Part shown: piece by piece, positions 10,230-62,915 of the stretch
How positions within the stretch are numbered: the first letter of the stretch is position 1
Layout of the letters: every line of letters begins with the position of its first letter
Assembly (NCBI GenBank): GCA_964607415.1
Contig: CAZSKK010000002.1
Location: forward strand, 158,380-222,379
Direction of reading: 5' to 3'
DNA from: an uncultured Candidatus Saccharibacteria bacterium
Lineage (GTDB): Bacteria > Patescibacteriota > Dojkabacteria > J137
DNA: 64,000 nucleotides
The notes under the pieces: generated by a model
Databases searched by the model: none
Told to the model about the DNA's origin: nothing
The model's input: the letters and a program-made list of their open reading frames with translations, nothing else
Position numbers and translations under genes: made by a program

Positions 10230-10233
10230 TAAT

Positions 10234-10261
10234 GAAGCCGTGACGTCGACGTCGCGGCTTC
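10234..10261. terminator. Bidirectional hairpin between convergent acd and porB
   Basis: Near-perfect 28-nt GC-rich palindrome gaagccgtgacgtcgacgtcgcggcttc, standing out against the AT-rich background. Confidence 0.5.
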
Positions 10262-10278
10262 ATTGTAATCATTTAAAT

Positions 10279-11163: not shown

Positions 11164-11227
11164 ATTTTTATTAAGTTCAATGATTAAATGTTCGAATTCC
11201 GAATTTTAGGTATTAAAATTTAAGCTT

Positions 11228-11255
11228 ATTTTGATAGCTTTGATCTTTATTATTA
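11228..11255. repeat. 28-mer repeat, copy 1 (porB-porA intergenic)
   Basis: attttgatagctttgatctttattatta matches 27 of 28 positions with 28498-28525. Confidence 0.5.
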
Positions 11256-13010
11256 TATTAAGTCATTTATTTTATCTCTGATTTCGTCCACAAAGAAAGG
11301 TCTTCCATCAAATCTTAAAATTTTCTGTTCAAATACATATCCAGTTTGCTGAGTAATCAACTTTCCTAGTTGACCTTCATAGTTATTTTCAATCAAAATA
11401 AGCTTATTCCCTTTTTTTATTAACTCATTTAGTTTTTCGGTTTTTAAAGGCCAAATGTATTCGTAATGAAGATAGTTTACTATCTTCCCTCTTGAGAGGG
11501 GATTAAGGGATGTGTTTTTGAGTTCATTTAATGTATCCAACACAGCATTCTTTACACTACCCCATCCTATCAAAGTAATATTTGCATCATCAGAGCCAAA
11601 AAGTTCCGGTTCAGGAAGAATTTGCAAAAGCGCGGCCTCCTTTTTCATTCTTTTTTCAAACATATCAATTACAAGCTTAGATTCTTCTACACTTGTTCCA
11701 TCTTCAGAATGCTCATCAGTATTTGCATCATAAGCTGCAACCGATTGCCCTGGAAACCATCTTGGGGAAACCCCCGATTCTGTTAGCTTGAATCTATCTG
11801 TTGGTTTTAAAGTTTCTAATTCTGAGTTTGAAACTAACCCTCTTTTTATTTCTATTGCATCCGGCAAACGTTCTACTTGGAAATAAGACTCTGCAATTTG
11901 TTTTTCAGTTAAAACAATTACTGGAATTTGAAATTCTTCGGAAATGTTTAAAGCTTCTTGAATTTTTATAAAACAAGATTCAATATCACTTACTGCAATA
12001 ACACACTTTACATATTCTCCATGCGAAGGCGTTACTGCAAGTAGCAAATCTGAAGCCGAAGTCCATGTTGGAAGTCCTGTTGCAGGCCCTGGCCTTTGAG
12101 CCAAAATACAAACAAAAGGAGTTTCTGTAATGGCACTTGCGGAAATCGTCTCAGACATTAAATCGAAACCTCCCCCCGAGGTTCCAGTTAAAGCTCTGGT
12201 TCCCATAAACATACTCCCCAAAGTCATTTGTGCGGCACTAATTTCATCTTCAACTTGTCTTACAATCATTCCAGTTTTTTTATACTGATTAGCAAGATAG
12301 CTTAAAATGGAAGAAGCTGGAGTCATTGGATAAGCATAGTATGCTCTTACCCCAGCAGCAATTGCTCCAAGGGCCAGTGCATGATTTCCAGTTATTAATA
12401 AATCTTTTGTGTTTTTATTCATTTTCTCAAAATCTGTTACATCAACTTTATAAACTTCTTGCTCCGAAAGATCGAAACCTTTTTTAATACATTTAAGATC
12501 AATTTCTAAAAACTTTGGTTTGTCTGCAAATTGTTCTTTAATAAATTCTTCTAATCTGGTTGGCTCAAATCTAAGAAGTTTCCATGTGTAAGAAAGAGCT
12601 ACAATATTTGCAAAAAGATTATCCCCTCCGATTTCAATTGAATATTTAGTAGCGTCTATAAAAAGTACTTTAATATTGTTTTGAATAATAAAATCTTGCT
12701 CTTCTTTTGAAAAATGCATGTGAGGCATTATATGAATAAGTGTTCCATTTTTATTAAGTGATTTTAGATATTTATGTGTAGAAATCCTGCTTAGACATAA
12801 AAGAACATTGCAAGTACTGCTAGATGATCTTATTTCTTTTTCAGAAAAATCAATTTGAAAGCTTGCATAGCCACCTTTAATTAATGATGGATATTCTCTA
12901 TATCCAAAGGTTTTATATCCTAAAGATTTAAGAGCTTTAACTAAAATCTCACCAGTAGAATTGACTCCTTGTCCGGATTCACCACCTATTTTTATTACGT
13001 AACGGCTCAT
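11253..13010 (-). CDS. porA: 2-oxoacid:ferredoxin oxidoreductase fused gamma-alpha subunit
   Basis: N-terminal IKIGGESGQGV is the gamma domain. GNHALALGAIAAGVRAYYAYPMTPAS is the alpha domain. Confidence 0.8.
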   Translation of the reverse strand: MSRYVIKIGGESGQGVNSTGEILVKALKSLGYKTFGYREYPSLIKGGYASFQIDFSEKEIRSSSSTCNVLLCLSRISTHKYLKSLNKNGTLIHIMPHMHFSKEEQDFIIQNNIKVLFIDATKYSIEIGGDNLFANIVALSYTWKLLRFEPTRLEEFIKEQFADKPKFLEIDLKCIKKGFDLSEQEVYKVDVTDFEKMNKNTKDLLITGNHALALGAIAAGVRAYYAYPMTPASSILSYLANQYKKTGMIVRQVEDEISAAQMTLGSMFMGTRALTGTSGGGFDLMSETISASAITETPFVCILAQRPGPATGLPTWTSASDLLLAVTPSHGEYVKCVIAVSDIESCFIKIQEALNISEEFQIPVIVLTEKQIAESYFQVERLPDAIEIKRGLVSNSELETLKPTDRFKLTESGVSPRWFPGQSVAAYDANTDEHSEDGTSVEESKLVIDMFEKRMKKEAALLQILPEPELFGSDDANITLIGWGSVKNAVLDTLNELKNTSLNPLSRGKIVNYLHYEYIWPLKTEKLNELIKKGNKLILIENNYEGQLGKLITQQTGYVFEQKILRFDGRPFFVDEIRDKINDLI

Positions 13011-20425: not shown

Positions 20426-21220
20426 ATGGAAGCAAAAGCTTCAGCAAACGATCCGAAGGTTTTTTCCAATCTTAGGATTTTTAACCTTATAATGGGTGTT
20501 CTACACTTACTTCAAGGAACCTTAATGCTAGCATTAAGTAATGATACAAAGTATACATTAACAACTAGTTTTTTAAGATTTAATCCAAATGCCGCAGAAC
20601 CAGTCCGATCAGTTACTGAAGAGTTAGTTAAAATTCCTCTTGGCCCTGCAATTGCTGCTTTTCTTTTTATTTCGGCAATGGCTCACTTTACAATAGCTGC
20701 GCCTGGAGTATATGAATGGTATGTTAAAAATCTTAAAAAAGGAGCAAACTATGCTAGATGGTATGAATACTCAATTAGCTCATCTTTAATGATAGGAGTA
20801 ATTGGCATTCTTTGCGGAATATTTGATGCACCAAGCTTGATTCTATTAATGGCGTTAAACGCTTGTATGATTTTTTTTGGTCTTGTGATGGAGCTTCATA
20901 ATCAAACAACTAAAAAAACCGATTGGACTTCATTTATTTATGGTTGTTTTGCTGGAATTGTACCTTGGCTAATCTTAGGCTGGTATTTTTTTGATGCAAT
21001 TGCAAATGTAGAGACAACAAATCCTGTTCCTAAATTTGTTTATGGAATACTAATTTCGCTATTCATATTCTTTAATATTTTTGCTGTAAATATGTTTTTG
21101 CAGTACAAAAAAGTTGGGCCCTGGAAGAATTATATATTTGGTGAAAAAATGTACATAGTTTTGAGTTTACTTGCAAAGTCAGCTCTTGCTTGGCAAGTAT
21201 TTTCTGGAACATTGAGATAA
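20426..21220 (+). CDS. Heliorhodopsin (7TM microbial rhodopsin, inverted topology)
   Basis: 264 aa with 7 TM helices. Diagnostic blocks WYEYSISSSLMI, CFAGIVPW, FVYGILISLFIFFN and YIVLSLLAKSALAWQVFSG match heliorhodopsin family signatures. The last block contains the retinal Schiff-base Lys. Confidence 0.8.
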   Translation: MEAKASANDPKVFSNLRIFNLIMGVLHLLQGTLMLALSNDTKYTLTTSFLRFNPNAAEPVRSVTEELVKIPLGPAIAAFLFISAMAHFTIAAPGVYEWYVKNLKKGANYARWYEYSISSSLMIGVIGILCGIFDAPSLILLMALNACMIFFGLVMELHNQTTKKTDWTSFIYGCFAGIVPWLILGWYFFDAIANVETTNPVPKFVYGILISLFIFFNIFAVNMFLQYKKVGPWKNYIFGEKMYIVLSLLAKSALAWQVFSGTLR

Positions 21221-24540: not shown

Positions 24541-26565
24541 ATGACTAATTTAGAATTTTCAACCTATATAACCTTCTTTATAGCTTTTGCTCTACTGGCT
24601 TTAGCTTTCGACTTACTATTTATTGGAAAGTTCCTTTACAAAGTGGTCAAAAAACGACACTTTAAAATTAGCTTCAAAAGCAAAAAATTATGGTTGAAGA
24701 TTTTGGTTTTCCTGTTATTTAACATTGCAATTCCAGGTGCAATTACTTATGTAGCATATCAAAAATACGAAAAGACAACTCCAACAATTACAAAATCAAC
24801 GCCATCAGGTGAAGGAGTTTGGTCCAGTTATTCAAAGCCTTTAGAAGTTGAATTCAATGTGCCTGTAAGCACTGTGAGGCTTTCTCCTAAAATAAATCCT
24901 ACTCTTGCCGGTGAATGGAAATGGGAACCTTACTATGGAACGCATGCACTAACAACTAAGGGTAAGTTCTACCCAAATGAAAGTTTATTCCCTGGGCAAA
25001 GAGTTGTTGTTTACATAACAGGAATCAGGCGAGCAAAGCATAATGAAAATCATGAAGCTGGGTTTGTATTTGATTCAGTTAAACTACCTGAAATTAATGT
25101 CTCAGACCCATTTAATAAATCTAAGGATGTTTCTTTAGAAACAAACATAGATTTGTTTTTAAATAAAAAAGATGAAAACTTACAAAACTGGAAATTTGAA
25201 TTTTCGCCAAAAATCGACTTCGAGGTCAGAACAATAAGCGAAACGCAATTTCAAATAGACCCAGCACTACCGTTTAATCAAAGTGAGAAGTACACACTTT
25301 ATGTTTCAAGACAAGCTAAAAGAGTTAACCTTGAAAACAAAGAGACAATAGAAGAGGATGGATACGAAGTTGTTAATAGGATTGAATTTGAAACACCTAA
25401 AGAGCCGCTTGTTAAAAGTTTTTCTCCAAAAGGTACTGGCGTAAAACAAGATGCTAAGATTAGAATTCGTTTTGAAGTACCAATGATTAGAGAGAACGTG
25501 GAGACATTATTTAAAATCACTCCAAGCGTTGAAGGTACTTTTGGATGGGAGGATGATAGAATCCTTAATTTTACACCCAATACCCTACTTCCAAAGGAAA
25601 CTTCTTATAAAGTTTCATTTCCTGAAGGTCTAGAAAGCCAAGGTGGTGGTGTTTCTGCCAAAGAAATTAGTTTTGAATTTGTAACAATTGGCGCAATACA
25701 ATTGCAATCATCTAGTCCTGCAAATGCTGCAACTAGAGTTAATGAATCTACAGAAATTAAAATAACTTTTGACCAAGAAGTTGATCAAACTTCCGCTCAA
25801 TCAAATTTTACGATATCTCCAAATATTGGAGGTAATTTTAGATGGGAAGGCAATACAATGATTTTTGACCCAAATAACAATTTGAATTTCAGCACAACCT
25901 ATACTGTTTCTCTTCAACCTGGAATTAAGTCGATTTATGGAATTGATAGCAGGGACAAATTTAACTTTAGTTTTACAACCAGATCAAACCAGGTGACTAT
26001 TTCTCTACCTATTTTTTATCAACCTCAGCCTTCATTCTCTTGTAATATTTATGCAACCAGAATGGGACTTGCATGGAAAGGTTACAACCTGGATGCAACA
26101 GCTATTATCGCTGAATTAGGCTATAACGATCAAAATATTAATGGGCAATGGCAAGGAAACCCAAACACACAATATGTTGGAACATATGATGGAAGTTGGG
26201 GATACGGTGTACACTGGAATCCAGTAAAAAGATTATTTGATAACAGAGGCCTAACGACCACCTTAAACGTAGGTTGGAACACGAGAGATCTTGCAAGAAC
26301 AATAGAAAACGGCAATCCCGTTATCATTTGGCGATATAATGGTGTTAGTGCAGATTATAACCTGAATTGGGTTGCGGCTGATGGTACCTATGTAAATGCA
26401 ATTAATGGACAACACGGTGGAGTTATTACAGGGTACAGAGGTACAAGTGACAATCCTACACAATTTCAAATTAATGATCCTTGGTATGGAATAATCTGGA
26501 TGGATGCCGGGGTATTTGATTACTATTGGTCTCGCTTAAATCGAGTTGGGTTGGTAATATATTAG
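24541..26565 (+). CDS. Surface protein: TM anchor, tandem bacterial Ig-like domains and C-terminal C39-like cysteine peptidase domain
   Basis: Repeated Ig-like blocks (NFTISPNIGGNFRWEGNTMIFDP...TYTVSL). The C-terminus has CNIYATRMGLAWKGY...HGGVITGY...NDPWYG, which resembles the Peptidase_C39_2 Cys/His/Asp arrangement. Confidence 0.5.
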   Translation: MTNLEFSTYITFFIAFALLALAFDLLFIGKFLYKVVKKRHFKISFKSKKLWLKILVFLLFNIAIPGAITYVAYQKYEKTTPTITKSTPSGEGVWSSYSKPLEVEFNVPVSTVRLSPKINPTLAGEWKWEPYYGTHALTTKGKFYPNESLFPGQRVVVYITGIRRAKHNENHEAGFVFDSVKLPEINVSDPFNKSKDVSLETNIDLFLNKKDENLQNWKFEFSPKIDFEVRTISETQFQIDPALPFNQSEKYTLYVSRQAKRVNLENKETIEEDGYEVVNRIEFETPKEPLVKSFSPKGTGVKQDAKIRIRFEVPMIRENVETLFKITPSVEGTFGWEDDRILNFTPNTLLPKETSYKVSFPEGLESQGGGVSAKEISFEFVTIGAIQLQSSSPANAATRVNESTEIKITFDQEVDQTSAQSNFTISPNIGGNFRWEGNTMIFDPNNNLNFSTTYTVSLQPGIKSIYGIDSRDKFNFSFTTRSNQVTISLPIFYQPQPSFSCNIYATRMGLAWKGYNLDATAIIAELGYNDQNINGQWQGNPNTQYVGTYDGSWGYGVHWNPVKRLFDNRGLTTTLNVGWNTRDLARTIENGNPVIIWRYNGVSADYNLNWVAADGTYVNAINGQHGGVITGYRGTSDNPTQFQINDPWYGIIWMDAGVFDYYWSRLNRVGLVIY

Positions 26566-26761
26566 AGCATATTAAATAGATTTCCTCTCCCCGAGAATGC
26601 ACGTTGTGCATTCGAGTGCAGCTGATTAGCTCCATTCGACAGCATAATATGCTGTCTCAGGATTAAGGTGAGGGTTTATACCGAGTTGGTGCATAACCTC
26701 ACCCTCCCCTCTCCTAATAGGAGAGGGATTTTGGAGATAATCTTAAATCATTTTTTTAATC

Positions 26762-26992
26762 ATGTTAAAACAGCTAGTCTACTCTCTAACAATTTCACTT
26801 ATGGTAGCCGGAGGATTCCTAGCGTACATGTTTTTAATCGGAATTCCCAAAACTAAAGCCAGAAACTATTACAATCAAGGTATGATTGCAAGGGAGGAAG
26901 GAAATGAAGCCGAAGCTCAAAAAGATTTTGAAAAAGCTCTTACTTATTGGGACGAAGAATATATTAAAAAGGAAATGAAGAAAAGTGAATAA
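26762..26992 (+). CDS. Small membrane-anchored protein (76 aa)
   Basis: One N-terminal TM helix followed by a charged helical tail. Confidence 0.3.
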   Translation: MLKQLVYSLTISLMVAGGFLAYMFLIGIPKTKARNYYNQGMIAREEGNEAEAQKDFEKALTYWDEEYIKKEMKKSE

Positions 26993-26995
26993 GTG

Positions 26996-27056
26996 TTAAT
27001 TGGTTATTAGTTGATTGGTTAATTGGCTCTTGTACTAATTAACCATTATACTAATT
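26996..27056. repeat. ~60-bp intergenic repeat, copy A (3' flank of fmt)
   Basis: ttaattggttattagttgattggttaattggctcttgtactaattaaccattatactaatt is about 85% identical to copy B. It has 10-bp terminal inverted repeats GTTAATTRGT...ACTAATTAAC. Confidence 0.6.
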
Positions 27057-28063
27057 TACTCATTAACTTTGTTCTCGCTAGCCAGCCAGAGGTACTCATG
27101 CCCACTACCCTTTTTCTTCCCTTCAATTTGAACTTCTAAGAGCTCTAATACACCGTTAGAAAGTTGAAGGTAAAGTTTTTTGTTTTGTTTAAATATGAAA
27201 GCATTGTCAGAAGCCTTACGCTCTAAGCCATACGCTTCTGACCTCTGACCACTAACCTCAGACCTAACTGCCTTATATATCTTCAATACCTTTGTATCCC
27301 TTTCTCGTAATTCATTTTTCGTAATTGGGAGTCTAGTCCACGCTATGGGCCACGGGTTAAATGCTCTAATCATTCTTTCTGAAACATTTATATCCGTTTC
27401 AAACTTAATCTCAGCTTTATCTTTAGAAATATCTGTTTTATAACAATATGTAGCCTTAGAATCATCTTGAGGGAATTCTTCTAATTCTCCTGAAATCCAA
27501 TTTTCAAGATTTTCAGATAAAATTTCTTTCGCAACAAGTGATAATTCATTCATTAACTCTCCTGCCGTTTTGCCCTCTACCTCTAAACCTCTCGACCTTG
27601 CGATTACGGGACCTTTATCCATTTCAGAAACCATTCTTTGAATAGTAACACCAGTTTCTTTAAATCCTTGTAAAACTGCCATTTGAACAGGAACAGCTCC
27701 TCTTAATAAAGGTAAAAATGATCCATGAATATTTAAACATTTGTGTTTAGGATACTCCAAAATATCATCAGGAATTATTTGTCCATAAGCTGCAACAATT
27801 ATAAGTTCAGGTTTAAATTTTTCTAAAATTACTTTAGATTCCAGCCTTAATTTTATAGGAGTAATAATTTTGTCCGAATCAAAGCCTTTTGATTGTGCAT
27901 ATGTTTTTATTTCAGTTGGTGTTAACACTTGCTTTCGACCAACAGGTTTATCTGGTTGAGTTACAATTCCAACTAGATCTATAAAATCACAACTCATCAG
28001 AAACTCCAATGAAGGGGTTCCAAAATCACTTGAACCGATAAAAAGAGTTCTTACTTTGTTCAT
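27056..28063 (-). CDS. fmt: Methionyl-tRNA formyltransferase
   Basis: Formyl-transferase N-domain FIGSSDFGTPSLEFL...VGIVTQPDKPVGRK and a C-terminal Fmt domain. Confidence 0.8.
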   Translation of the reverse strand: MNKVRTLFIGSSDFGTPSLEFLMSCDFIDLVGIVTQPDKPVGRKQVLTPTEIKTYAQSKGFDSDKIITPIKLRLESKVILEKFKPELIIVAAYGQIIPDDILEYPKHKCLNIHGSFLPLLRGAVPVQMAVLQGFKETGVTIQRMVSEMDKGPVIARSRGLEVEGKTAGELMNELSLVAKEILSENLENWISGELEEFPQDDSKATYCYKTDISKDKAEIKFETDINVSERMIRAFNPWPIAWTRLPITKNELRERDTKVLKIYKAVRSEVSGQRSEAYGLERKASDNAFIFKQNKKLYLQLSNGVLELLEVQIEGKKKGSGHEYLWLASENKVNE

Positions 28064-28071
28064 AGAAATAG

Positions 28072-28132
28072 TTAATTAGTTGTTAGTTGATTTGTTAATC
28101 GGTTGTTTTACTAATTAACTATTATACCAATT
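28072..28132. repeat. ~60-bp intergenic repeat, copy B (5' flank of fmt)
   Basis: ttaattagttgttagttgatttgttaatcggttgttttactaattaactattataccaatt. The inverted 10-mers gttaattagt/actaattaac are perfect. Confidence 0.6.
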
Positions 28133-28150
28133 GACGAATTAACTTCCTAT

Positions 28151-28183
28151 ATTCTTTATTCTTGATTCATAATTCTGAATTTG
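28151..28183 (+). promoter_or_regulatory. TGATTC/TAATTC heptad motif (family copy 3), upstream of the ileS leader
   Basis: attctttattcttgattcataattctgaatttg shares a 16-bp identical core cttgattcataattct with the copy at 20338. Confidence 0.4.
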
Positions 28184-28189
28184 TGCTAA

Positions 28190-28410
28190 AATCAGTTAAC
28201 GCATTGAAGGAGCAATCACTCCGGAGCAAAGAGCAGAACAGCCAAAGAGCAATAGAGATGAAGAGCAAGCTTAATAGCTCTAAAACTCTCAACCTCTTAA
28301 GCTTATTAGACCTCTTCGGGTAGCCCGAAATAGCTATAAAATTAAGTGCTTGGCAACTTCGCCAGGAATTAGGGTGGTAACACGGTAAACTTCATATCGT
28401 CCCTTCTATA
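28190..28410 (+). promoter_or_regulatory. T-box-like leader RNA upstream of ileS (Ile specifier candidate AUCA)
   Basis: AATTAGGGTGGTAACACGG at 28367-28385 closely resembles the T-box consensus AAUUAGGGUGGNACCGCGG. AUCA lies in a hairpin loop about 150 nt upstream, and an AGAGA element sits at 28251. It is located 5' of an aminoacyl-tRNA synthetase gene. Confidence 0.5.
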
Positions 28411-28497
28411 AATTTAAGATCAAAGTTTCAAAGAGTTCAAAATAGTTTCAAAACTTAAAAATAAATCTGAAAATTTTCATTTTGATGTTTTTTATTA

Positions 28498-28525
28498 TTT
28501 TGATAGCTTTGATCTTTGTTATTAA
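28498..28525. repeat. 28-mer repeat, copy 2 (ileS 5' UTR)
   Basis: attttgatagctttgatctttgttatta. Confidence 0.5.
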
Positions 28526-28563
28526 CTTAAAGTATTTATAATTTAGAATTTATTACTAAAACC

Positions 28564-31542
28564 ATGTTCAGCAAACCAAACCCAAAGCAGAATTTCTTTG
28601 ATCTAGAGCAACAAATTTTAAACTGGTGGAAGGAGCAACAGATTCTAGAAAAATCGATTAACCAACGACCAGACGATCAGTCTAAAACATTCTACGATGG
28701 TCCTATTACTGCCAATGGTGAGCCTCATCACGGGCATATGCTTACGTTTGCAATGAAAGATATTATTCCAAGATACTGGACAATGAAAGGCTATAAGGTC
28801 AGTAGAAGTTTAGGATGGGACTGTCAAGGTATTCCTGTTGAATATGAAGTTGAAAAAAAATTGGGTTTTACTGAAAAAAAAGATATTGAAAAGTACGGCG
28901 TTGCAGCTTTTAATCAACTTTGTAGAGAATCAGTTGAAAAATATAGAGGAAATATCATTGAACTTGAAGAACTGATGGGTAGACTTACAAACTCTGATGA
29001 AGAGTTTGCAACAATGGATAGGGATTATATTGAATCAGTATGGTGGTCGTTGAGTGAACTTTATAAAAAAGGCCTCCTTTACGAAGGATTTAAAGTTGTT
29101 CCATACTCAACAAGAGCTGGAACTACGCTCTCAAACGCAGAAGTTGCTTTAGGAGGATATAAGCCTTTTGTTGATCCCGCAATCACTGTTGAATTTCCTT
29201 TAAAGGATGATCCTAAAACAATATTACTTGCTTGGACAACAACACCCTGGACAATACCTTCAAACCTAGGGCTTGCTGTCGGTAAAGATATTAAATATGT
29301 GAAAGTGAAAAGCCAGGTGCCTGATAATACTTACATTGTTGCAAAAGATTTGATAAAACAAGTATTTAAAGATGATCCAGTAGAAATTATTGGAGAAGTG
29401 GCAGTGGGTGAACTGGTAGGTAAGGAATATACTCCACCTTTCGATTTTTATGCTGGAAGAAAAAATGTCCATAAAATTTACGAAGGTTTCCATGTAACTA
29501 CTGATTCGGGTACAGGAATAGTTCATCTTGCGCCATATGGTGCTGAAGATAATGAAATATTTCAAAAAGTCGGCATTGAAAGCTTCGATTATTTAGATGA
29601 GCAAGGTGATTTTATTTCTACAGTTCCAATGTATGCTGGAATTAATTATAGAGATGCTAATCCAAAAATAATTGAAGATCTAAAAGCCAAAGATGCATTA
29701 TTTAGAAATGAAGAATATGAGCACGAAATGCCTATGTGTTGGAGAACAAACACTCCACTTATTTATAAACCAATAACCTCTTGGTTTATTGCAATGAGCA
29801 GCTTAAGAAAAGAACTGGTTGATAATAATAATAAAATCAACTGGATACCATCTCATGTAAAAGACGGTAGATTTGGAAACTGGCTTTCTGAAATTAAAGA
29901 TTGGGGAATATCCAGATTAAGATACTGGGGCACCCCTTTACCAGTCTGGAAATCAGCAAGCGGAAAAATAATCTTCATAGGTTCATTTGAAGAAATTGAA
30001 AAATATACTGGCAAAAAAGTAGAAGACCCCCATAAGCCGTTTATTGATGATTTTGTGTTCGAGTATGAAGGAGAAACTTACAAAAGAATTCCAGATGTAA
30101 TTGATGTTTGGTACGATTCAGGTGCTATGCCATTTGCAAGATTTCACTATCCTTTTGAAAACGAAGAAAAATTTAAGAAAAAATTCCCTGCACAATACAT
30201 TGCCGAAGGGGTTGACCAAACAAGAGGCTGGTTCTACTCTCTTCATGCTATAGGAACTGCACTTATGGATAGCCCAGCATTTGAAAATGTTGTTATGAAC
30301 GGATTTGTATTGGACGACAAAGGTGCTAAATTAAGTAAGAGCAAGAAAAATTATACAGCACCAAAACCGCTAATTGAAAAATTTGGAGCCGACACAATTA
30401 GACTAAACTTCTTTTCAACCGCAATCTCTGCAGGAGAAGATACAACTGTTAGTGAAAAAACTCTAAATATTCAAAAGCAAGAAACTATCCTTCCACTTTG
30501 GAACATCTATTCTTTCTTTACAACCTATGCAAACTTGCATAACTGGGAACCCCGCTCTGAGCTTTGTTACAACAATCGTGAAAACAAAGCCGATGAATTT
30601 CCTTGGGATCACATGCCCTTTAATGATTTGGAAAATAATTTAGACGCATGGATTTTATTACTCCTTCAAGAAACAATAAAAGAAGTAACCAGTGCTTTGG
30701 ACAAATACGAAATACCAAGGGCAACAAGAAGCGCAAAATCATTTATAGACGATCTTTCTAAATGGTATATAAGAAGAAATAGAGATAGATTTGCAAGTGG
30801 TGATACTGATGCCCTAGATACACTTTATTATGTACTTGTAGAGTGCTTAAAGCTATTTGCACCAATAACACCATTTATAACTGAATACATTTACAAAGAG
30901 CTTGTAGCTAGTCAATTAAGCGATATGCCTGAATCAGTGCATTTAACAAACTACCCTACTTCAGACACACAATTTATTGAACAGTACTCAGCTTTACTTG
31001 AAGAGATGAGAATTATTAGAGAAGTTTGTGAAATGGGCCACTCTTTAAGAACTACAAATCAACTTAAAGTAAGACAACCACTTGCGAAAGTTGAGTTAAT
31101 TAATACTAATGTTGCAGTTCCTGCTTTCTCAGATTGGATGAAAAAGATATTAATGGATGAACTTAACGTAAAAGATGTTGTAGAAGTCATGCAATTTTCA
31201 TCAAAAAAAGTTATAAATACAGAAAATGCTGCCTTAAGCATAAAAGTAGGATTAGACACGGAAATCACACAGGATCTTTTAGATGAAGGCCTTGTGAGGG
31301 ATATAACTAGAGAAATTCAAAGCATTAGAAAGAACATGAGTCTTGATATTGGTGATAAAATAACTTTGAGCTATCAAACAAATGATGTAGACTTAAATAG
31401 AATTCTTGAGAATTTTAAGGAAACTATTTTGAATAGTATTAATGCAGCTGAAATTTTGAATGTAGAAAGTATTAAACAAGACACTAAACAGGAAATAGAT
31501 TTAAATGGCAAAAAAGTTACAATTAATTTAGTTAAAAAGTAA
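28564..31542 (+). CDS. ileS: Isoleucyl-tRNA synthetase (type 2)
   Basis: HIGH motif PHHGHML, KMSKS motif KLSKSKKN, editing domain, 992 aa. Confidence 0.9.
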   Translation: MFSKPNPKQNFFDLEQQILNWWKEQQILEKSINQRPDDQSKTFYDGPITANGEPHHGHMLTFAMKDIIPRYWTMKGYKVSRSLGWDCQGIPVEYEVEKKLGFTEKKDIEKYGVAAFNQLCRESVEKYRGNIIELEELMGRLTNSDEEFATMDRDYIESVWWSLSELYKKGLLYEGFKVVPYSTRAGTTLSNAEVALGGYKPFVDPAITVEFPLKDDPKTILLAWTTTPWTIPSNLGLAVGKDIKYVKVKSQVPDNTYIVAKDLIKQVFKDDPVEIIGEVAVGELVGKEYTPPFDFYAGRKNVHKIYEGFHVTTDSGTGIVHLAPYGAEDNEIFQKVGIESFDYLDEQGDFISTVPMYAGINYRDANPKIIEDLKAKDALFRNEEYEHEMPMCWRTNTPLIYKPITSWFIAMSSLRKELVDNNNKINWIPSHVKDGRFGNWLSEIKDWGISRLRYWGTPLPVWKSASGKIIFIGSFEEIEKYTGKKVEDPHKPFIDDFVFEYEGETYKRIPDVIDVWYDSGAMPFARFHYPFENEEKFKKKFPAQYIAEGVDQTRGWFYSLHAIGTALMDSPAFENVVMNGFVLDDKGAKLSKSKKNYTAPKPLIEKFGADTIRLNFFSTAISAGEDTTVSEKTLNIQKQETILPLWNIYSFFTTYANLHNWEPRSELCYNNRENKADEFPWDHMPFNDLENNLDAWILLLLQETIKEVTSALDKYEIPRATRSAKSFIDDLSKWYIRRNRDRFASGDTDALDTLYYVLVECLKLFAPITPFITEYIYKELVASQLSDMPESVHLTNYPTSDTQFIEQYSALLEEMRIIREVCEMGHSLRTTNQLKVRQPLAKVELINTNVAVPAFSDWMKKILMDELNVKDVVEVMQFSSKKVINTENAALSIKVGLDTEITQDLLDEGLVRDITREIQSIRKNMSLDIGDKITLSYQTNDVDLNRILENFKETILNSINAAEILNVESIKQDTKQEIDLNGKKVTINLVKK

Positions 31543-33249: not shown

Positions 33250-34104
33250 ATGAAAAAATCTGTTTTAGGTAAAGGCTTATCAGCTCTAATAGACGAAACA
33301 AGTCTTCCGGAGATATCGCAGGGCTTTATTCCTAAACTACCAGTAAAACTTATAGTACCTAACCCTTACCAACCTAGAAGCGAAATCAAACCTGAAGAAC
33401 TTATTGAGCTTGCTGATTCAATAAGACAACACGGTGTAATTGAGCCTTTGTTAGTTACAAAAAAATCAGAAAGCCAATATGAACTAATTGCAGGAGAAAG
33501 AAGGTGGAGAGCTTCTCAACTTGCAGGTATAGAGACTGTACCCGTAGTTGTAAAAGAAGCTTCACCCAAAGAAATGCTGGAACTTGCTATTGTAGAAAAT
33601 ATACAAAGGCGGGACTTAAATCCACTAGAAGAGGCAATGGCATTTGAGCAGCTTACAAAGATGTTTAACATGACTCATGATGAAATTTCCAAAAAAGTGG
33701 CTCTAAGTAGACCTGCAATTGCCAACAAAATAAGGCTTCTTTCACTTCCAGAAGAAATTAAAAAAGGATTACTTGAAGAAAAAATATCCGAAGGTCATGC
33801 AAGAGCTTTGTTGGGATTAAACTCTAAGGAAACAATGATTGCAACCTATAAAATCATTTTAAGAGATAATCTTTCAGTAAGAGCAGTTGAAGAATTAGTT
33901 AGGCGATTAAACAAAGGCAAACAAGTAAAAAAAAGAGCCGATATGAGAATTTTAGACGAAAAAACAGTAAAAATTGAATCTAGCCTCAAAGAAAGATTTG
34001 GCGAAAAAGTAACTCTCGCAAGATCAAAAAAAGGAGGAAAAATAGTTATTCCTTTTTCTAATGATCACGAACTTGATGGGATTGTAAAAAAATTAAGTAT
34101 ATAA
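33250..34104 (+). CDS. parB: Chromosome partitioning protein ParB/Spo0J
   Basis: ParB box LIAGERRWRAS plus an HTH region. Confidence 0.85.
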   Translation: MKKSVLGKGLSALIDETSLPEISQGFIPKLPVKLIVPNPYQPRSEIKPEELIELADSIRQHGVIEPLLVTKKSESQYELIAGERRWRASQLAGIETVPVVVKEASPKEMLELAIVENIQRRDLNPLEEAMAFEQLTKMFNMTHDEISKKVALSRPAIANKIRLLSLPEEIKKGLLEEKISEGHARALLGLNSKETMIATYKIILRDNLSVRAVEELVRRLNKGKQVKKRADMRILDEKTVKIESSLKERFGEKVTLARSKKGGKIVIPFSNDHELDGIVKKLSI

Positions 34105-34165
34105 ATTGCCTTCACACCCTACCCTTAATTTCAATAAGTGATAAAATTATAAAATAGTAAATTAA

Positions 34166-34223
34166 TTAATTAGTTTTTTGTTAATTTGTAAATACTAATT
34201 AACTTTTTACGAATTATCCAATT
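34166..34223. repeat. Intergenic repeat, copy C (diverged), upstream of the amidase gene
   Basis: ttaattagttttttgttaatttgtaaatactaattaactttttacgaattatccaatt shares the blocks ttaattagtt, tgttaat, tactaattaact and ccaattRacgaa with copies A and B. Confidence 0.45.
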
Positions 34224-34231
34224 AACGAAAT

Positions 34232-35347
34232 ATGCCACGAGCCTTAATATCTGCAGCACATACTCTAATGGTCCCTGGACAGATTTTTCAGGATCTTAGA
34301 GAAGCAGATTTAACCAGAAAAATTGTTAACAAAATGGTTCCTCACCTTGAAAAAACAGGTATAACTTTCCAGGCCGTTCCATTGGATCTTATTCTTACTG
34401 ATAGAATTGAATGGATTAATAACTCTGGCTATTCCGAAGATACAGATGATATCCTAGTTGAAATTCATGTTAATGATGGAGGTAAACGCGGAATTGAGGG
34501 TTGGTTTAGCGAAGAAGCAAACCCAGGAAATCGATCCCAAATTCTAGCAGATTACCTTCTAAAAGAAGTATGTACTGCTACAGGATATACTAATCAAACA
34601 GCCAAAAGTGAACTTCAGCATGAATTGACCTCATTGGTTATTCTTAACCAGACTAATACTATTTCTGTAGCACTGGAATGCCTATATATTGATAATCCCG
34701 AAGATATTGCAATTTTGAAAGATGATAAAAAGCTTGATGATCTTGCAAAGGCACTTGCTGAAGCAATTGCAAAATACATTAAATCAGACAGTAGTAAAAA
34801 ACCTGCTAATGCAAAGCCTAAGGCAAAACCTGACCCAGTTTTCAGCCCTAAACCCCCTTTTGGTGGTTTACCTTCATTGGGAGGATTAGGTGGTGGATTT
34901 GGATCACCTAGTGCATCTAGTACTTCCCCTTCATCCGGATCAAGTAATCTTATGATGGATAGGGAACAAAGAAAAAAAATGATAAATGATACTTACACTA
35001 AAATTTTAGGAAAAGAGCCTAATGCTAACGATTTAAATCAGAATTTGAATACAGGTGTTTCCGAAGAACAGTTAATCAAAAAACTTGTTGATTCTAAAGA
35101 TTTTGAAACAATGGTAAAAGATGCAAAAGATGCAAAAGATTTGCGCAATAAATCTACTCAAATGGAAGCAGATGTTGCAAGACTCCAGGCAGAAAGTAAT
35201 GACTTAAAGGCTATTAATGCTAATCTAAATAGACTTCTTCAGCATAAAAATATGACCATCACAAAAATGCAGCAGGAAATGGTTAGCCGTGGTGTTTTAA
35301 AACCTGGTGAATTCTTTGATTTAGGTTCTACACAAACTCAACGTTAG
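34232..35347 (+). CDS. N-acetylmuramoyl-L-alanine amidase (Amidase_3) with low-complexity linker and C-terminal DUF4214-like/coiled-coil region
   Basis: ISAAHT...VEIHVNDGG...LECLYIDNPED are Amidase_3 zinc-ligand blocks. A Pro/Gly/Ser-rich linker is followed by a C-terminal helical domain. Confidence 0.55.
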   Translation: MPRALISAAHTLMVPGQIFQDLREADLTRKIVNKMVPHLEKTGITFQAVPLDLILTDRIEWINNSGYSEDTDDILVEIHVNDGGKRGIEGWFSEEANPGNRSQILADYLLKEVCTATGYTNQTAKSELQHELTSLVILNQTNTISVALECLYIDNPEDIAILKDDKKLDDLAKALAEAIAKYIKSDSSKKPANAKPKAKPDPVFSPKPPFGGLPSLGGLGGGFGSPSASSTSPSSGSSNLMMDREQRKKMINDTYTKILGKEPNANDLNQNLNTGVSEEQLIKKLVDSKDFETMVKDAKDAKDLRNKSTQMEADVARLQAESNDLKAINANLNRLLQHKNMTITKMQQEMVSRGVLKPGEFFDLGSTQTQR

Positions 35348-37285: not shown

Positions 37286-37344
37286 ATAGATATCATGTGA
37301 GCACGAAGAGCGAGCATAGAATAGATATACTTATCCAGCGAAAT

Positions 37345-37378
37345 AAAAAAGCCGCGACATCAATGTCGCGGCTTTTTT
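37345..37378. terminator. Bidirectional rho-independent terminator between rny and the HEPN-nucleotidyltransferase gene
   Basis: aaaaaa-GCCGCGACA-tcaa-TGTCGCGGC-tttttt is a perfect 9-bp GC stem flanked by an A-tract and a T-tract. Confidence 0.8.
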
Positions 37379-37404
37379 ATTTCTCAAAATTCTATATATT
37401 TTGT

Positions 37405-45697: not shown

Positions 45698-45775
45698 ATT
45701 TTAAAGCTACAAAAAATGGCCATGAAGAAAATACTTTCTTCATGGCCATAATTTACTATTATTCCTATTTATAAA

Positions 45776-61815: not shown

Positions 61816-62250
61816 ATGAAAAAATTTTTAAAAGAATTTAGAGAATTTGCAGCTAGAGGTAATGTTATTGACTTAGCAGTTGGAGTAATTATGGGTGGAG
61901 CATTTGGGAAAATTGTAACTTCGCTAGTTGAAGATCTAATCATGCCTCCAATTGGAGTCCTGATTGGCGGTGTGAACTTTGCTGATTTAAGCGTTACTTT
62001 AAAAAATGCACGTGTTGATTCTAACGGATCAGTTATCGAAGCTGTAACTTGGAACTATGGAAACTTTATTCAAGTTACTTTCAACTTCTTAATTGTTGCC
62101 CTTTCAATATTTTTGCTAATAAAAGCTATAAATAAATTAAAAAGAGAAGACGAAAAGAAAAAAGAAATCAAGGAAGAAAAGAAAGTTGAAAAAAGTACTC
62201 AGGTAAAGTTGCTTGAGGAGATCAGAGATTTGCTGAAAGATGGTAAATAG
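61816..62250 (+). CDS. mscL: Large-conductance mechanosensitive channel
   Basis: [27 protein letters not shown]. Confidence 0.85.
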
Positions 62251-62303
62251 TGAATTTGTAAAATGTTAATTAGCATTATCACAAATTAACCTAAAAACCA
62301 AAA

Positions 62304-62915
62304 CTACTTACTAATATTAAGACTTCGCCATAATACTCTACAAGCAAGAGTTCTGTTAGGAGCCCAATTTGTAGAAAGCTCTAAAAGTTCTTTAGGTTTT
62401 ATATCCTCTGATACTTTATATTCTCGAATTATTGCCCTTTTTAGACCATAATCCCCTACTGAAAAGACATCAGGCCTTGCCATACTGAACATTAAAAACA
62501 TTTCAGAAGTCCACCTTCCAATACCTTTAATTTTTGTAAGTTCAGTAATTATGTCTTCATTTTCCATATCTTTAAACTTTCTATAATGCACACTTCCATC
62601 TTGCCAAGCTGTTGCAACATTTTTCATGTATGCAATTTTGGAATTAGAAGGCCCTGCTATTCTTAAAACTTCATGGCTAGCATTTAAAATGTTAGCTGGA
62701 GTTATTTCTCCATTTGGCAGTACAGATCTGACTTTATCTACAATTTTTGGTGCTACTTTTTCCGATAATTGCTGGCCAATAATTGATTGACATAAATCAG
62801 AAAAATACTCCGAAGGATCCAAAGGCGTTGGAACAGGAAGTTCGCCATAGTGAGCTACTACTTTCTGATAAAGCTTTTGCATTATTTTATCTTTTGGGAA
62901 TTTTGCCTTAATCAT
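62304..62915 (-). CDS. HhH-GPD family DNA glycosylase (AlkA/3-methyladenine glycosylase II-like)
   Basis: HhH motif LTKIKGIGRWTSEMF and catalytic Asp in VGDYGLKRAI. Confidence 0.6.
   Translation of the reverse strand: MIKAKFPKDKIMQKLYQKVVAHYGELPVPTPLDPSEYFSDLCQSIIGQQLSEKVAPKIVDKVRSVLPNGEITPANILNASHEVLRIAGPSNSKIAYMKNVATAWQDGSVHYRKFKDMENEDIITELTKIKGIGRWTSEMFLMFSMARPDVFSVGDYGLKRAIIREYKVSEDIKPKELLELSTNWAPNRTLACRVLWRSLNISK

What the first reader, a model, noticed from the sequence alone, without database searches (positions are those of the whole stretch)
26996..28132. ~60-bp intergenic element with 10-bp terminal inverted repeats bracketing fmt (third copy at 34166-34223)
Copies at 26996-27056 and 28072-28132 are about 85% identical, in the same orientation on both sides of fmt. 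Each starts and ends with inverted 10-mers GTTAATTRGT...ACTAATTAAC (perfect in copy B) that could form a 10-bp stem with a 29-nt loop. A diverged third copy precedes the amidase gene. This is either a MITE-like mobile repeat or a repeated operator or attenuator. Its bracketing of a single essential gene is striking.
Basis: seen in the sequence. Interest (0 to 1): 0.5.

Follow-up and report, generated by a model that had tools for sequence, protein, structure and literature searches.

The report
AT-rich palindromic repeat flanking fmt
A small family of roughly 75-base, AT-rich, hairpin-forming repeats sits between genes in this candidate-phyla-radiation (CPR) bacterium; two young copies lie at either end of the fmt gene, so this is a modestly interesting example of a familiar kind of small bacterial repeat, not a new system.

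Summary
The repeat unit is 75 nt: A at 26995-27069 and B at 28071-28145, 63/75 identical, ungapped, in direct orientation. It is a long quasi-palindrome of 7-8-nt words (GTTAATTN x4, a loop, then NAATTAAC-type x4).

Copy C (34155-34228, before the amidase gene) is a true member. A marginal fourth copy, D, lies at 62243-62310. I found no others in about 76 kb of this genome.

The window is from a Candidatus Dojkabacteria genome. A sister species lacks A and B. There the fmt stop codon sits where A begins, and a -10 box lies 6 nt before the ATG, against 57 nt in the window. C and D are present in sister species. The spacer holding C is 95% identical, against about 60% at silent sites, so it is under selection.

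Best reading: a REP/MITE/Correia-like palindromic intergenic repeat that spread recently and locally, now forming the 5' leader and 3' end of fmt, with one older copy co-opted. It fails the definitions of REP, attC, parS and canonical terminator. No target duplication or transposase was found. Mobility and RNA-level function are inferred, not shown.

The parts
26995..27069 (+). Copy A of the repeat. It fills the gap between the stop of the small TPR gene (26990-26992) and the 3' end of fmt, and supplies the last three codons and the TAA stop of fmt (27056-27067).
   Evidence: RNA fold of the + strand: -23.8 kcal/mol, z = -5.6, whole-length hairpin; - strand: -18.5 kcal/mol, z = -4.7. Comparison with the sister species.
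28071..28145 (+). Copy B of the repeat, in the same orientation as A. It lies between the fmt start codon (28063) and the promoter region of the ileS T-box leader. The perfect 14-bp inverted repeat is 28067-28080/28110-28123.
28121..28129 (-). TGGTATAAT, an extended -10-like box inside the right arm of copy B, 57 nt upstream of the fmt ATG. It is the only good -10 candidate for fmt.
   Evidence: Read from the sequence. One search lists no TAnnnT box in the 45 nt before the fmt ATG. The sister species and an outgroup have the box 6-7 nt before the ATG. Promoter activity was not tested.
34155..34228 (+). Copy C, with the same word architecture and a 10-nt central deletion relative to B. It ends 3 nt before the amidase ATG (34232).
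   Evidence: Present in sister-species locus L067. The consensus hairpin 34173-34226 is kept through one U-G to U-A change.
34105..34231 (+). The whole parB-amidase spacer, which contains copy C and is under strong purifying selection.
   Evidence: 121/127 identical between the window and L067. Silent third positions are 60% identical and the other three spacers are 60-77% identical. Binomial P about 2e-20.
62243..62310 (+). Copy D, a marginal family member. It fills the 53-nt gap between the convergent mscL (61816-62250) and HhH-GPD glycosylase (62304-62915) genes and overlaps both stop codons.
   Evidence: Present in sister-species locus L077 at about 78% identity, close to the neutral rate.
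27056..28063 (-). fmt (methionyl-tRNA formyltransferase), the gene bracketed by A and B.
   Evidence: Pfam Formyl_trans_N and Formyl_trans_C. Homologs are named methionyl-tRNA formyltransferase of Candidatus Dojkabacteria.
28195..28407 (+). T-box leader of ileS (28564-31542). It sets the right-hand limit of the free space that copy B occupies.
   Evidence: Rfam RF00230, 50.7 bits (gathering score 93), E = 1.3e-9. Pfam tRNA-synt_1 for the gene.

Best explanation
This is a lineage-specific family of small (about 65-80 bp), AT-rich, quasi-palindromic intergenic repeats. Each copy is built from 7-8-nt words: four GTTAATT-like words, a loop, then four AATTAAC-like words. It behaves like the small non-autonomous repeats of other bacteria (REP, MITE, Correia-type). 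Copies arise by duplication or insertion into the short spacers at gene boundaries, and they carry stop codons in all six frames. Copies A and B are young paralogs gained in this species after it split from its sister species, probably by a local copying event, since they are only 1 kb apart. A landed on the fmt stop codon, so fmt now ends three codons later at a TAA inside the repeat. B landed just upstream of the fmt ATG, turning a probably leaderless mRNA into one with a leader of roughly 50 nt that starts inside the repeat. When transcribed, each copy can fold into a hairpin on either strand. It therefore most likely acts, if at all, as an mRNA-end structure: a 3' hairpin for both convergent genes at A and D, and a 5'-leader hairpin abutting the start codon at B and C. 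The older copy C has been co-opted into a selected cis-regulatory spacer in front of the cell-wall amidase gene. Shown: the family, its architecture, presence or absence at orthologous sites, and selection on C. Inferred: mobility, direction of copying, transcription, and any RNA-level effect.
For: Family and homology: A-B 84% over 75 nt, E = 5.7e-10; B-C and A-C scores exceed all 824 null comparisons. The architecture pattern matches 5 times in the window against 0 in shuffles, although I derived the pattern from these copies. Word structure: lag-8 autocorrelation 0.55 against 0.33 in shuffles, z = 7.6; 1-5 stop codons in each of the six frames. Hairpin potential beyond shuffles for A on both strands (z = -5.6 and -4.7) and weaker for B and D. 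All four copies fill spacers wall to wall. Gain and loss: sister-species locus L008 (fmt 83% aa identity) lacks the repeat at both ends of fmt. Its stop codon lies exactly where A starts. Its -10 box is 6 nt from the ATG, as in outgroup L071 (7 nt), against 57 nt in the window. Outgroups have short parB-amidase spacers with no repeat. A-B divergence (16%) is well below the silent-site divergence between the window and its sister species (30-40%), consistent with duplication after the split. C is conserved at 95% against about 60% neutral. D persists at close to the neutral rate. Known analog: Correia elements of Neisseria have inverted repeats, can create promoters at their ends, and are bound or cut by RNase III (abstract of PMC2649163).
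Against: Only four copies are visible in about 76 kb, and the rest of the genome could not be read. No target-site duplication is shared by the copies: TA/TA flanks the 49-nt core only in B. No transposase, RAYT or integrase gene was found among the window ORFs scanned or in the gene tables of the flanks. A and B fold differently, so there is no single conserved structure. In the sister species the changes in D break predicted pairs instead of compensating. For site A the direction of change is not polarised: the sister species has an adh_short gene there, so A could mark a deletion junction. Gene conversion could also keep A and B similar. The stems are AU-rich and lack a clean U-tract, and the terminator scan finds nothing. 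There is no expression data.
Confidence: 0.5

Rival explanations
1. Operator array. The 7-8-bp words, in direct then inverted orientation, are cooperative binding sites for a DNA-binding protein, in the manner of the tandem 8-bp met boxes of MetJ or the heptad arrays of ribbon-helix-helix proteins. The protein would regulate the genes immediately downstream: amidase via C and fmt via B.
For: The 8-nt periodicity is strong. B and C each end 3-7 nt from a start codon. The spacer holding C is under strong purifying selection across its whole length. B overlaps the only good -10 box for fmt. The MetJ and ribbon-helix-helix comparison comes from my own knowledge and was not tested.
Against: A and D lie between convergent 3' ends, where there is nothing to regulate. 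B is absent from the sister species, so fmt does not need it. B and C have opposite orientations relative to their genes. No candidate regulator was identified, and D evolves almost neutrally. Similar word hairpins in other phyla lie mostly between tandem or convergent genes and inside tRNA clusters.
Confidence: 0.17
2. The primary function is a bidirectional transcription terminator or 3'-end stabiliser. The palindrome gives both convergent transcripts a 3' hairpin, and B and C are by-products.
For: A and D sit exactly between convergent stop codons. C follows parB, and its ACTAATTAAC is followed by TTTTT. A folds well on both strands. Moderately T-rich tails follow A on both strands.
Against: The clear terminators in this window are GC-rich stems with T runs (10231-10264, 37340-37383, 45716-45749). 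The terminator scan finds none at A, B or C. B lies between divergent gene starts. The sister species has no such hairpin at the fmt end.
Confidence: 0.15
3. A neutral local duplication or palindrome-growth product with no function and no mobility. Slippage and template switching in AT-rich DNA at gene ends would build word palindromes, and A and B would be a chance segmental copy.
For: A and B are only 1,076 bp apart. Similar 8-nt word hairpins occur in unrelated phyla, which suggests a shared mutational route. D evolves close to the neutral rate. No mobility machinery was found.
Against: C is strongly conserved. Four copies share one specific architecture word by word. The same pattern gives only 58 hits in 185,579 genomes, so independent origin of four copies within 64 kb is unlikely. 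A 75-nt unit copied precisely to the two boundaries of one ORF is not what slippage produces.
Confidence: 0.13
4. Centromere-like (parS-type) sites for the neighbouring ParAB system. Four sites would cluster within 35 kb around parAB, one of them directly downstream of parB.
For: Copy C lies in the conserved spacer just after parB. A and B lie 4-5 kb upstream of parA. There is no canonical parS in the window or in any Dojkabacteria locus fetched.
Against: There is no resemblance to the conserved 16-bp parS. Outgroup Dojkabacteria with the same ParB domain set have no such words next to parB. A and B are missing from the sister species. D drifts at close to the neutral rate.
Confidence: 0.05

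Closest known systems
Correia repeat enclosed elements (CREE/NEMIS) of Neisseria
   Same: Both are small non-autonomous repeats with terminal inverted repeats that lie at gene boundaries, are polymorphic between close relatives, and are co-transcribed with neighbouring genes. CREE can create a -10 promoter at its end and forms a hairpin bound or cut by RNase III (abstract of PMC2649163). Copy B likewise carries a -10-like box and would form a leader hairpin.
   Different: There is no sequence similarity. CREE is 100-155 bp with about 26-bp inverted repeats, a TA target duplication and hundreds of copies (from my own knowledge). Here the unit is about 75 bp, built of 8-nt words, TA flanks only one copy, and only four copies are visible.
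REP / REPIN / BIME elements associated with RAYT transposases
   Same: Both are intergenic, imperfectly palindromic and transcribed as part of mRNA ends. REPs have been proposed to act in mRNA stability and termination (abstracts of PMC3733652 and PMC2817692).
   Different: REPs are 20-40 bp, G+C-rich, tagged by GTAG or CGTC at one end, usually number more than 100 copies, and are linked to a RAYT gene (same abstracts). This element is about 75 bp and AT-rich, starts with GTTA, and no RAYT gene was seen.
Rickettsia palindromic elements and other MITEs that insert at or inside gene ends
   Same: Both are palindromic repeats that can become part of an ORF. Copy A provides the last three codons and the stop codon of fmt.
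   Different: RPEs insert in frame inside genes and are 100-150 bp (from my own knowledge). Here only a C-terminal tail of three residues is affected, and no mobility machinery is known.
Intrinsic (Rho-independent) terminators
   Same: Both are hairpins located at 3' ends of genes, able to act on either strand at convergent gene pairs.
   Different: The stems here are AU-rich, long and interrupted, with no clean U-tract. The obvious terminators in the same window look quite different.

Membership tests
MITE (miniature inverted-repeat transposable element) | Terminal inverted repeats | tested here: met
   10-bp inverted repeat in A and 14-bp perfect inverted repeat in B. The whole unit is a quasi-palindrome.
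MITE (miniature inverted-repeat transposable element) | Target-site duplication flanking each copy | tested here: inconclusive
   TA/TA flanks the 49-nt core of B and would restore a 6-nt spacer between the -10 box and the ATG, as in the sister species. A (GT/CA), C (TA/TT) and D (TA/CT) have no duplication. The homology also extends beyond that core, so the true ends are uncertain.
MITE (miniature inverted-repeat transposable element) | Presence/absence polymorphism at orthologous sites | tested here: met
   A and B are absent from sister-species locus L008. Outgroup L071 supports gain at site B. Site A is not polarised.
MITE (miniature inverted-repeat transposable element) | Many dispersed copies, and an autonomous partner element with the same inverted repeats | tested here: inconclusive
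   There are four copies in about 76 kb. No transposase was found among the window ORFs scanned or in the gene tables of the flanks.
REP / REPIN (RAYT-associated) | 20-40 bp palindrome with a GTAG or CGTC tetranucleotide at one end (PMC3733652) | tested here: not met
   The unit is about 75 nt and begins GTTA. There is no GTAG or CGTC head.
REP / REPIN (RAYT-associated) | High copy number (over 100 per genome) and a RAYT gene (PMC2817692) | not testable with these tools
   Only 64 kb plus about 12 kb of the genome could be read. No Y1 transposase was seen in that part.
Intrinsic terminator | G+C-rich stem followed directly by a U-tract | tested here: not met
   The scan found no terminator-like site in 26500-28700 or 33900-34400. 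The stems are AU-rich.
Integron attC site | RYYYAAC ... GTTRRRY polarity (inverse core at the 5' end, core site at the 3' end) | tested here: not met
   The element reads GTTAAT...ATTAAC on both strands, which is the opposite polarity, and GTTAATT does not fit GTTRRRY (read from the sequence; the attC definition is from my own knowledge). No integrase was found in the window ORFs scanned.
Chromosomal parS | 16-bp palindrome TGTTNCACGTGAAACA | tested here: not met
   No match with 3 or fewer mismatches in or near the elements.
Any Rfam RNA family | Covariance-model match | tested here: not met
   Nothing meaningful at A, B or C even at E up to 1. The only hit on A is a chance plant miRNA-precursor model at E = 0.36.

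The most novel reading that the evidence does not exclude
The element may be one instance of an undescribed, cross-phylum class of intergenic 'word hairpins'. These are tandem 7-8-nt words that each contain a stop codon (GGTTAATT, GGTGAGTG, GGATGAAG and the like), followed by their inverted copies. They fill short transcribed spacers between genes and even between tRNA genes in Omnitrophota, Bacteroidota, Chloroflexota, Planctomycetota, CPR and others. Under this reading the class has a common function, such as RNA processing or insulation, or a six-frame stop, and is not just a product of convergent mutation.
Probability: 0.15. Interest if true: 0.6.

Novelty: new variant of a known kind. Interest (0 to 1): 0.35.

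Why it matters
CPR genomes are small and are usually described as poor in repeats, so a young, spreading palindromic repeat family in a Dojkabacteria genome is a useful marker of recent genome change. It also shows how such an insertion can rewrite both ends of a core translation gene: fmt gains a new stop codon and C-terminal tail, and a leaderless-type promoter becomes one with a structured leader, in an organism with no Shine-Dalgarno sequences. The strongly conserved copy in front of the division amidase, just after parB, is a concrete candidate cis-regulatory element in a lineage where almost no regulation is known. None of this changes current understanding of how such repeats work.

Tried and rejected
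- **Copy count in the whole genome.** The source genome is not in genome contigs; the architecture pattern returned 58 loci, none from Dojkabacteria. The look-up of encoding contigs gave only Logan contigs, 100% identical over the shared part, so there is no strain variation. Extending both window ends by about 12 kb gave no new copy.
- **Metagenome and viral scans.** The exact core of C gave 0 hits. The A/B/C architecture gave 15 unrelated word hairpins. The viral scan gave 1 hit.
- **fmt as a translocated cassette with attL/attR-like repeats.** Rejected. The divergent fmt-ileS adjacency is kept in outgroup L071. fmt lies close to the C39 peptidase gene in the sister species and in L072.
- **attC, parS, REP, canonical terminator, known RNA family.** All fail their tests (see membership rows).
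- **TA target duplication.** Seen only at B.
- **Covariation support for one RNA structure.** A and B fold differently. C shows only one wobble-to-Watson-Crick change. The changes in D break pairs.
- **Six-frame stops as a special property.** This is real, but about 40% of random 75-mers at 33% G+C would also have it by my estimate, so I do not use it as evidence.
- **Literature search for the words.** No papers. No report of MITEs in Patescibacteria genomes.
- **Outgroup for site D.** Synteny differs there, so it was uninformative.
- **First MAFFT alignment of the fmt upstream regions.** I gave the wrong range. It was replaced by an ATG-anchored comparison.

Full report
**1. What is in the sequence**

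The window is 33% G+C. It comes from a Candidatus Dojkabacteria (CPR/Patescibacteria) genome. The bracketed gene has Formyl_trans_N and Formyl_trans_C domains, and its homologs are named methionyl-tRNA formyltransferase of Dojkabacteria.

The repeat finder reports a 75-nt ungapped direct repeat, 26995-27069 (A) and 28071-28145 (B), 84% identical. BLASTN of A finds B at E = 5.7e-10. The A-B local alignment score is 90, against a maximum of 27 in 824 comparisons with real intergenic windows of this genome. Composition therefore does not explain the match.

In B they extend to 14 perfect bp. They bracket only the first 49 nt. Homology continues 26 nt further right.

Gene context:
- A lies between the stop of a 76-aa TPR protein gene (26762-26992, + strand) and fmt (27056-28063, - strand). 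Its last 11 nt are the last codons of fmt.
- B lies between the fmt ATG and the promoter region of a T-box leader (28195-28407, Rfam 50.7 bits, E = 1.3e-9). That leader precedes ileS.

**2. Architecture**

All copies read as four 7-8-nt words beginning with GT, a loop word, ACWAATTAAC, and three words ending in AC. For A this is GTTAATTG|GTTATTA|GTTGATTG|GTTAATTG|GCTCTTGT|ACTAATTAAC|CATTATAC|TAATTTAC|TCATTAAC.

Self-similarity at a shift of 8 nt is 0.55, against 0.33 in shuffles (z = 7.6). Every reading frame on both strands holds 1-5 stop codons. This last property is only mildly unusual at this base composition.

The unit is a long quasi-palindrome. A folds as a whole-length hairpin on both strands (-23.8 and -18.5 kcal/mol; z = -5.6 and -4.7). 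B uses the 14-bp outer stem instead (z about -3). C and D fold more weakly. There is therefore hairpin potential but no single conserved structure.

**3. Family size**

- A profile of A and B finds weak matches at 34166-34226 (E = 0.086) and 62239-62301 (E = 0.018).
- Aligned word by word, C is 81% identical to B apart from a 10-nt central gap, and 75% identical to A.
- B-C (score 52) and A-C (33) exceed every null comparison. D is marginal: C-D scores 30, reached by 2 of 824 null comparisons, and A-D and B-D are not significant.
- A four-copy profile finds nothing more in the window, in about 12 kb of added flank from the same species, or in about 55 kb of related Dojkabacteria loci, apart from the orthologs of C and D.
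- The source genome is not in the genome collection, so I could not count copies genome-wide.

**4. Position of the copies**

Each copy fills a short spacer almost completely.
- A and D lie between convergent stop codons.
- C lies between parB and an amidase gene, ending 3 nt before the ATG.
- B lies between divergent starts, 7 nt from the fmt ATG.

**5. Comparison with relatives**

Contigs of the same species from other samples are 100% identical over the shared part.

Sister-species locus L008 has fmt at 83% amino-acid identity, with the same neighbours: heliorhodopsin, acyltransferase, C39 peptidase and the TPR gene. It lacks the repeat at both ends of fmt.
- At the 3' end, similarity stops after GGCTAGC. 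The sister's TGA lies where A begins, and the window's fmt reads on for three codons (V-N-E) to a TAA inside A. The sister species also has an adh_short gene between fmt and the TPR gene, so site A could be an insertion or a deletion junction.
- At the 5' end, the sister species has GGTACAAT six nt before the ATG and outgroup L071 has TATAAT seven nt before it. The window has GGTATAAT 57 nt upstream, with the core of B in between.
- None of the 61 ORFs in the window has a Shine-Dalgarno match placed to serve as a ribosome-binding site. Many have a TAnnnT box 6-7 nt before the ATG, so leaderless mRNAs are probably the norm. B would give fmt an unusual structured leader.
- I cannot tell whether that -10 box in B is ancestral or brought in by the repeat. 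A and C carry the homologous word.

**6. Older copies**

C is present in sister-species locus L067 (amidase 88% amino-acid identity). The 127-nt parB-amidase spacer differs at only 6 positions (95% identity). Silent third codon positions are 60% identical and the other three spacers are 60-77% identical, giving a binomial P of about 2e-20. One of the three changes inside C turns a U-G pair of the predicted + strand hairpin into U-A.

More distant Dojkabacteria keep the ileS-lepB-parA-parB-amidase-rny gene order. Their parB-amidase spacers are only 30-77 nt, with a -10-like box near the ATG and no repeat.

D is present in sister-species locus L077 at about 78% identity, against 64-70% at third positions, and its changes break predicted pairs. 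So C and D predate the split, C is selected, and D drifts. A-B divergence of 16% is well below the silent-site divergence between the species, which fits a later origin, although gene conversion could mimic this.

**7. What it is not**

- There is no canonical parS in the window or in any Dojkabacteria locus fetched.
- The terminator scan finds no site at A, B or C. Real terminators in the window are GC-rich stems with T runs.
- There is no Rfam match.
- The end polarity is opposite to attC.
- The size, base composition and head sequence do not fit REPs as defined in PMC3733652 and PMC2817692.
- No transposase, RAYT or integrase was found among the window ORFs scanned or in the gene tables of the flanks.
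- TA flanks only the 49-nt core of B.

**8. Interpretation**

The best-supported reading is a small, lineage-specific, palindromic intergenic repeat of the REP/MITE/Correia kind that has recently gained two copies at the boundaries of fmt. The effects on the fmt C-terminus and on the spacing between its nearest -10-like box and the ATG are read from the sequence comparisons. The effects on its transcript ends are inferred. One older copy has been taken into a selected regulatory spacer.

The closest functional analog is the Correia element, which can supply promoters and forms RNase III-sensitive hairpins (PMC2649163). Membership in any named family is not supported. The rivals are an operator array, a dedicated bidirectional terminator, neutral palindrome growth, and parS-like sites. 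They are weighed in the fields above.

**9. Side observation**

I wrote the architecture pattern to find more copies. It returned 58 loci from many phyla and 15 metagenome contigs, but only one viral contig. Nearly all are hairpins made of tandem 8-nt words followed by their inverted copies, with lag-8 z = 30.

They lie mostly in short spacers: 30 between tandem genes, 7 between convergent genes and 2 between divergent genes. The 10 hits inside ORFs look like chance matches. Some sit within or just after tRNA clusters.

The pattern forces part of this similarity. I cannot tell whether it reflects a shared function or a shared mutational route.

**10. Verdict**

The MITE-like interpretation is partly supported. 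This is a modestly interesting new variant of a known kind of element. The main open questions are genome-wide copy number, transcription, and what selects the copy in front of the amidase gene.

Noticed in passing
window 28195-28407 (+): A divergent T-box leader lies upstream of ileS in a CPR genome. Rfam RF00230 scores 50.7 bits, well below the gathering score of 93, but with E = 1.3e-9 and a clear AAUUAGGGUGGUAACACG core. The default gathering search missed it.
   Followed up: partly
window 26566-26740; L008 1-80; L071 2330-2450: A cluster of GC-rich hairpins (CCTCACCC..., CCCTCTCCTAATAGGAGAGGG) lies between the C39 peptidase and TPR genes. Four independent Logan contigs of this species all end at window position 26639. 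Similar GC-rich hairpins lie upstream of fmt in the sister species and in an outgroup. This is probably a second, GC-rich repeat family that breaks assemblies. No second copy was found within the sequence held.
   Followed up: partly
whole window, upstream of all 61 ORFs: No ORF has a Shine-Dalgarno-like motif placed to serve as a ribosome-binding site. Many genes have a TAnnnT box 6-7 nt before the ATG, which suggests widespread leaderless mRNAs.
   Followed up: partly
L009-L066 and L080-L094 (for example L043 5653-5694 and 2088-2147; L028 2761-2824; L054 6733-6770): Hairpins built of tandem 8-nt words followed by their inverted copies (GGTTAATT, GGTGAGTG, GGATGAAG) occur in short spacers in Omnitrophota, Bacteroidota, Chloroflexota, Planctomycetota and CPR, some inside tRNA clusters. 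Lag-8 autocorrelation gives z = 30. The literature search on four representative word strings found no paper.
   Followed up: partly
window 11226-11270 and 28495-28539: A 45-nt direct repeat, 87% identical. One copy is at the 3' end of the pyruvate:ferredoxin oxidoreductase gene and the other lies between the T-box leader and the ileS ATG (family D4).
   Followed up: no
L008 1140-1880, against window 26993-27055: The sister species carries an adh_short (short-chain dehydrogenase) gene between the TPR gene and fmt. This genome lacks it, and copy A sits at that junction.
   Followed up: partly
L008 83-112: The gene call for the sister-species fmt (P0002) starts 10 codons upstream of the conserved MNK start, and those extra codons run through the probable -10 box. 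The true start is most likely the ATG at L008 113.
   Followed up: yes
window 20426-21220 (+): A heliorhodopsin gene (Pfam E = 1.8e-98) lies in this CPR genome and is conserved in the sister species.
   Followed up: no
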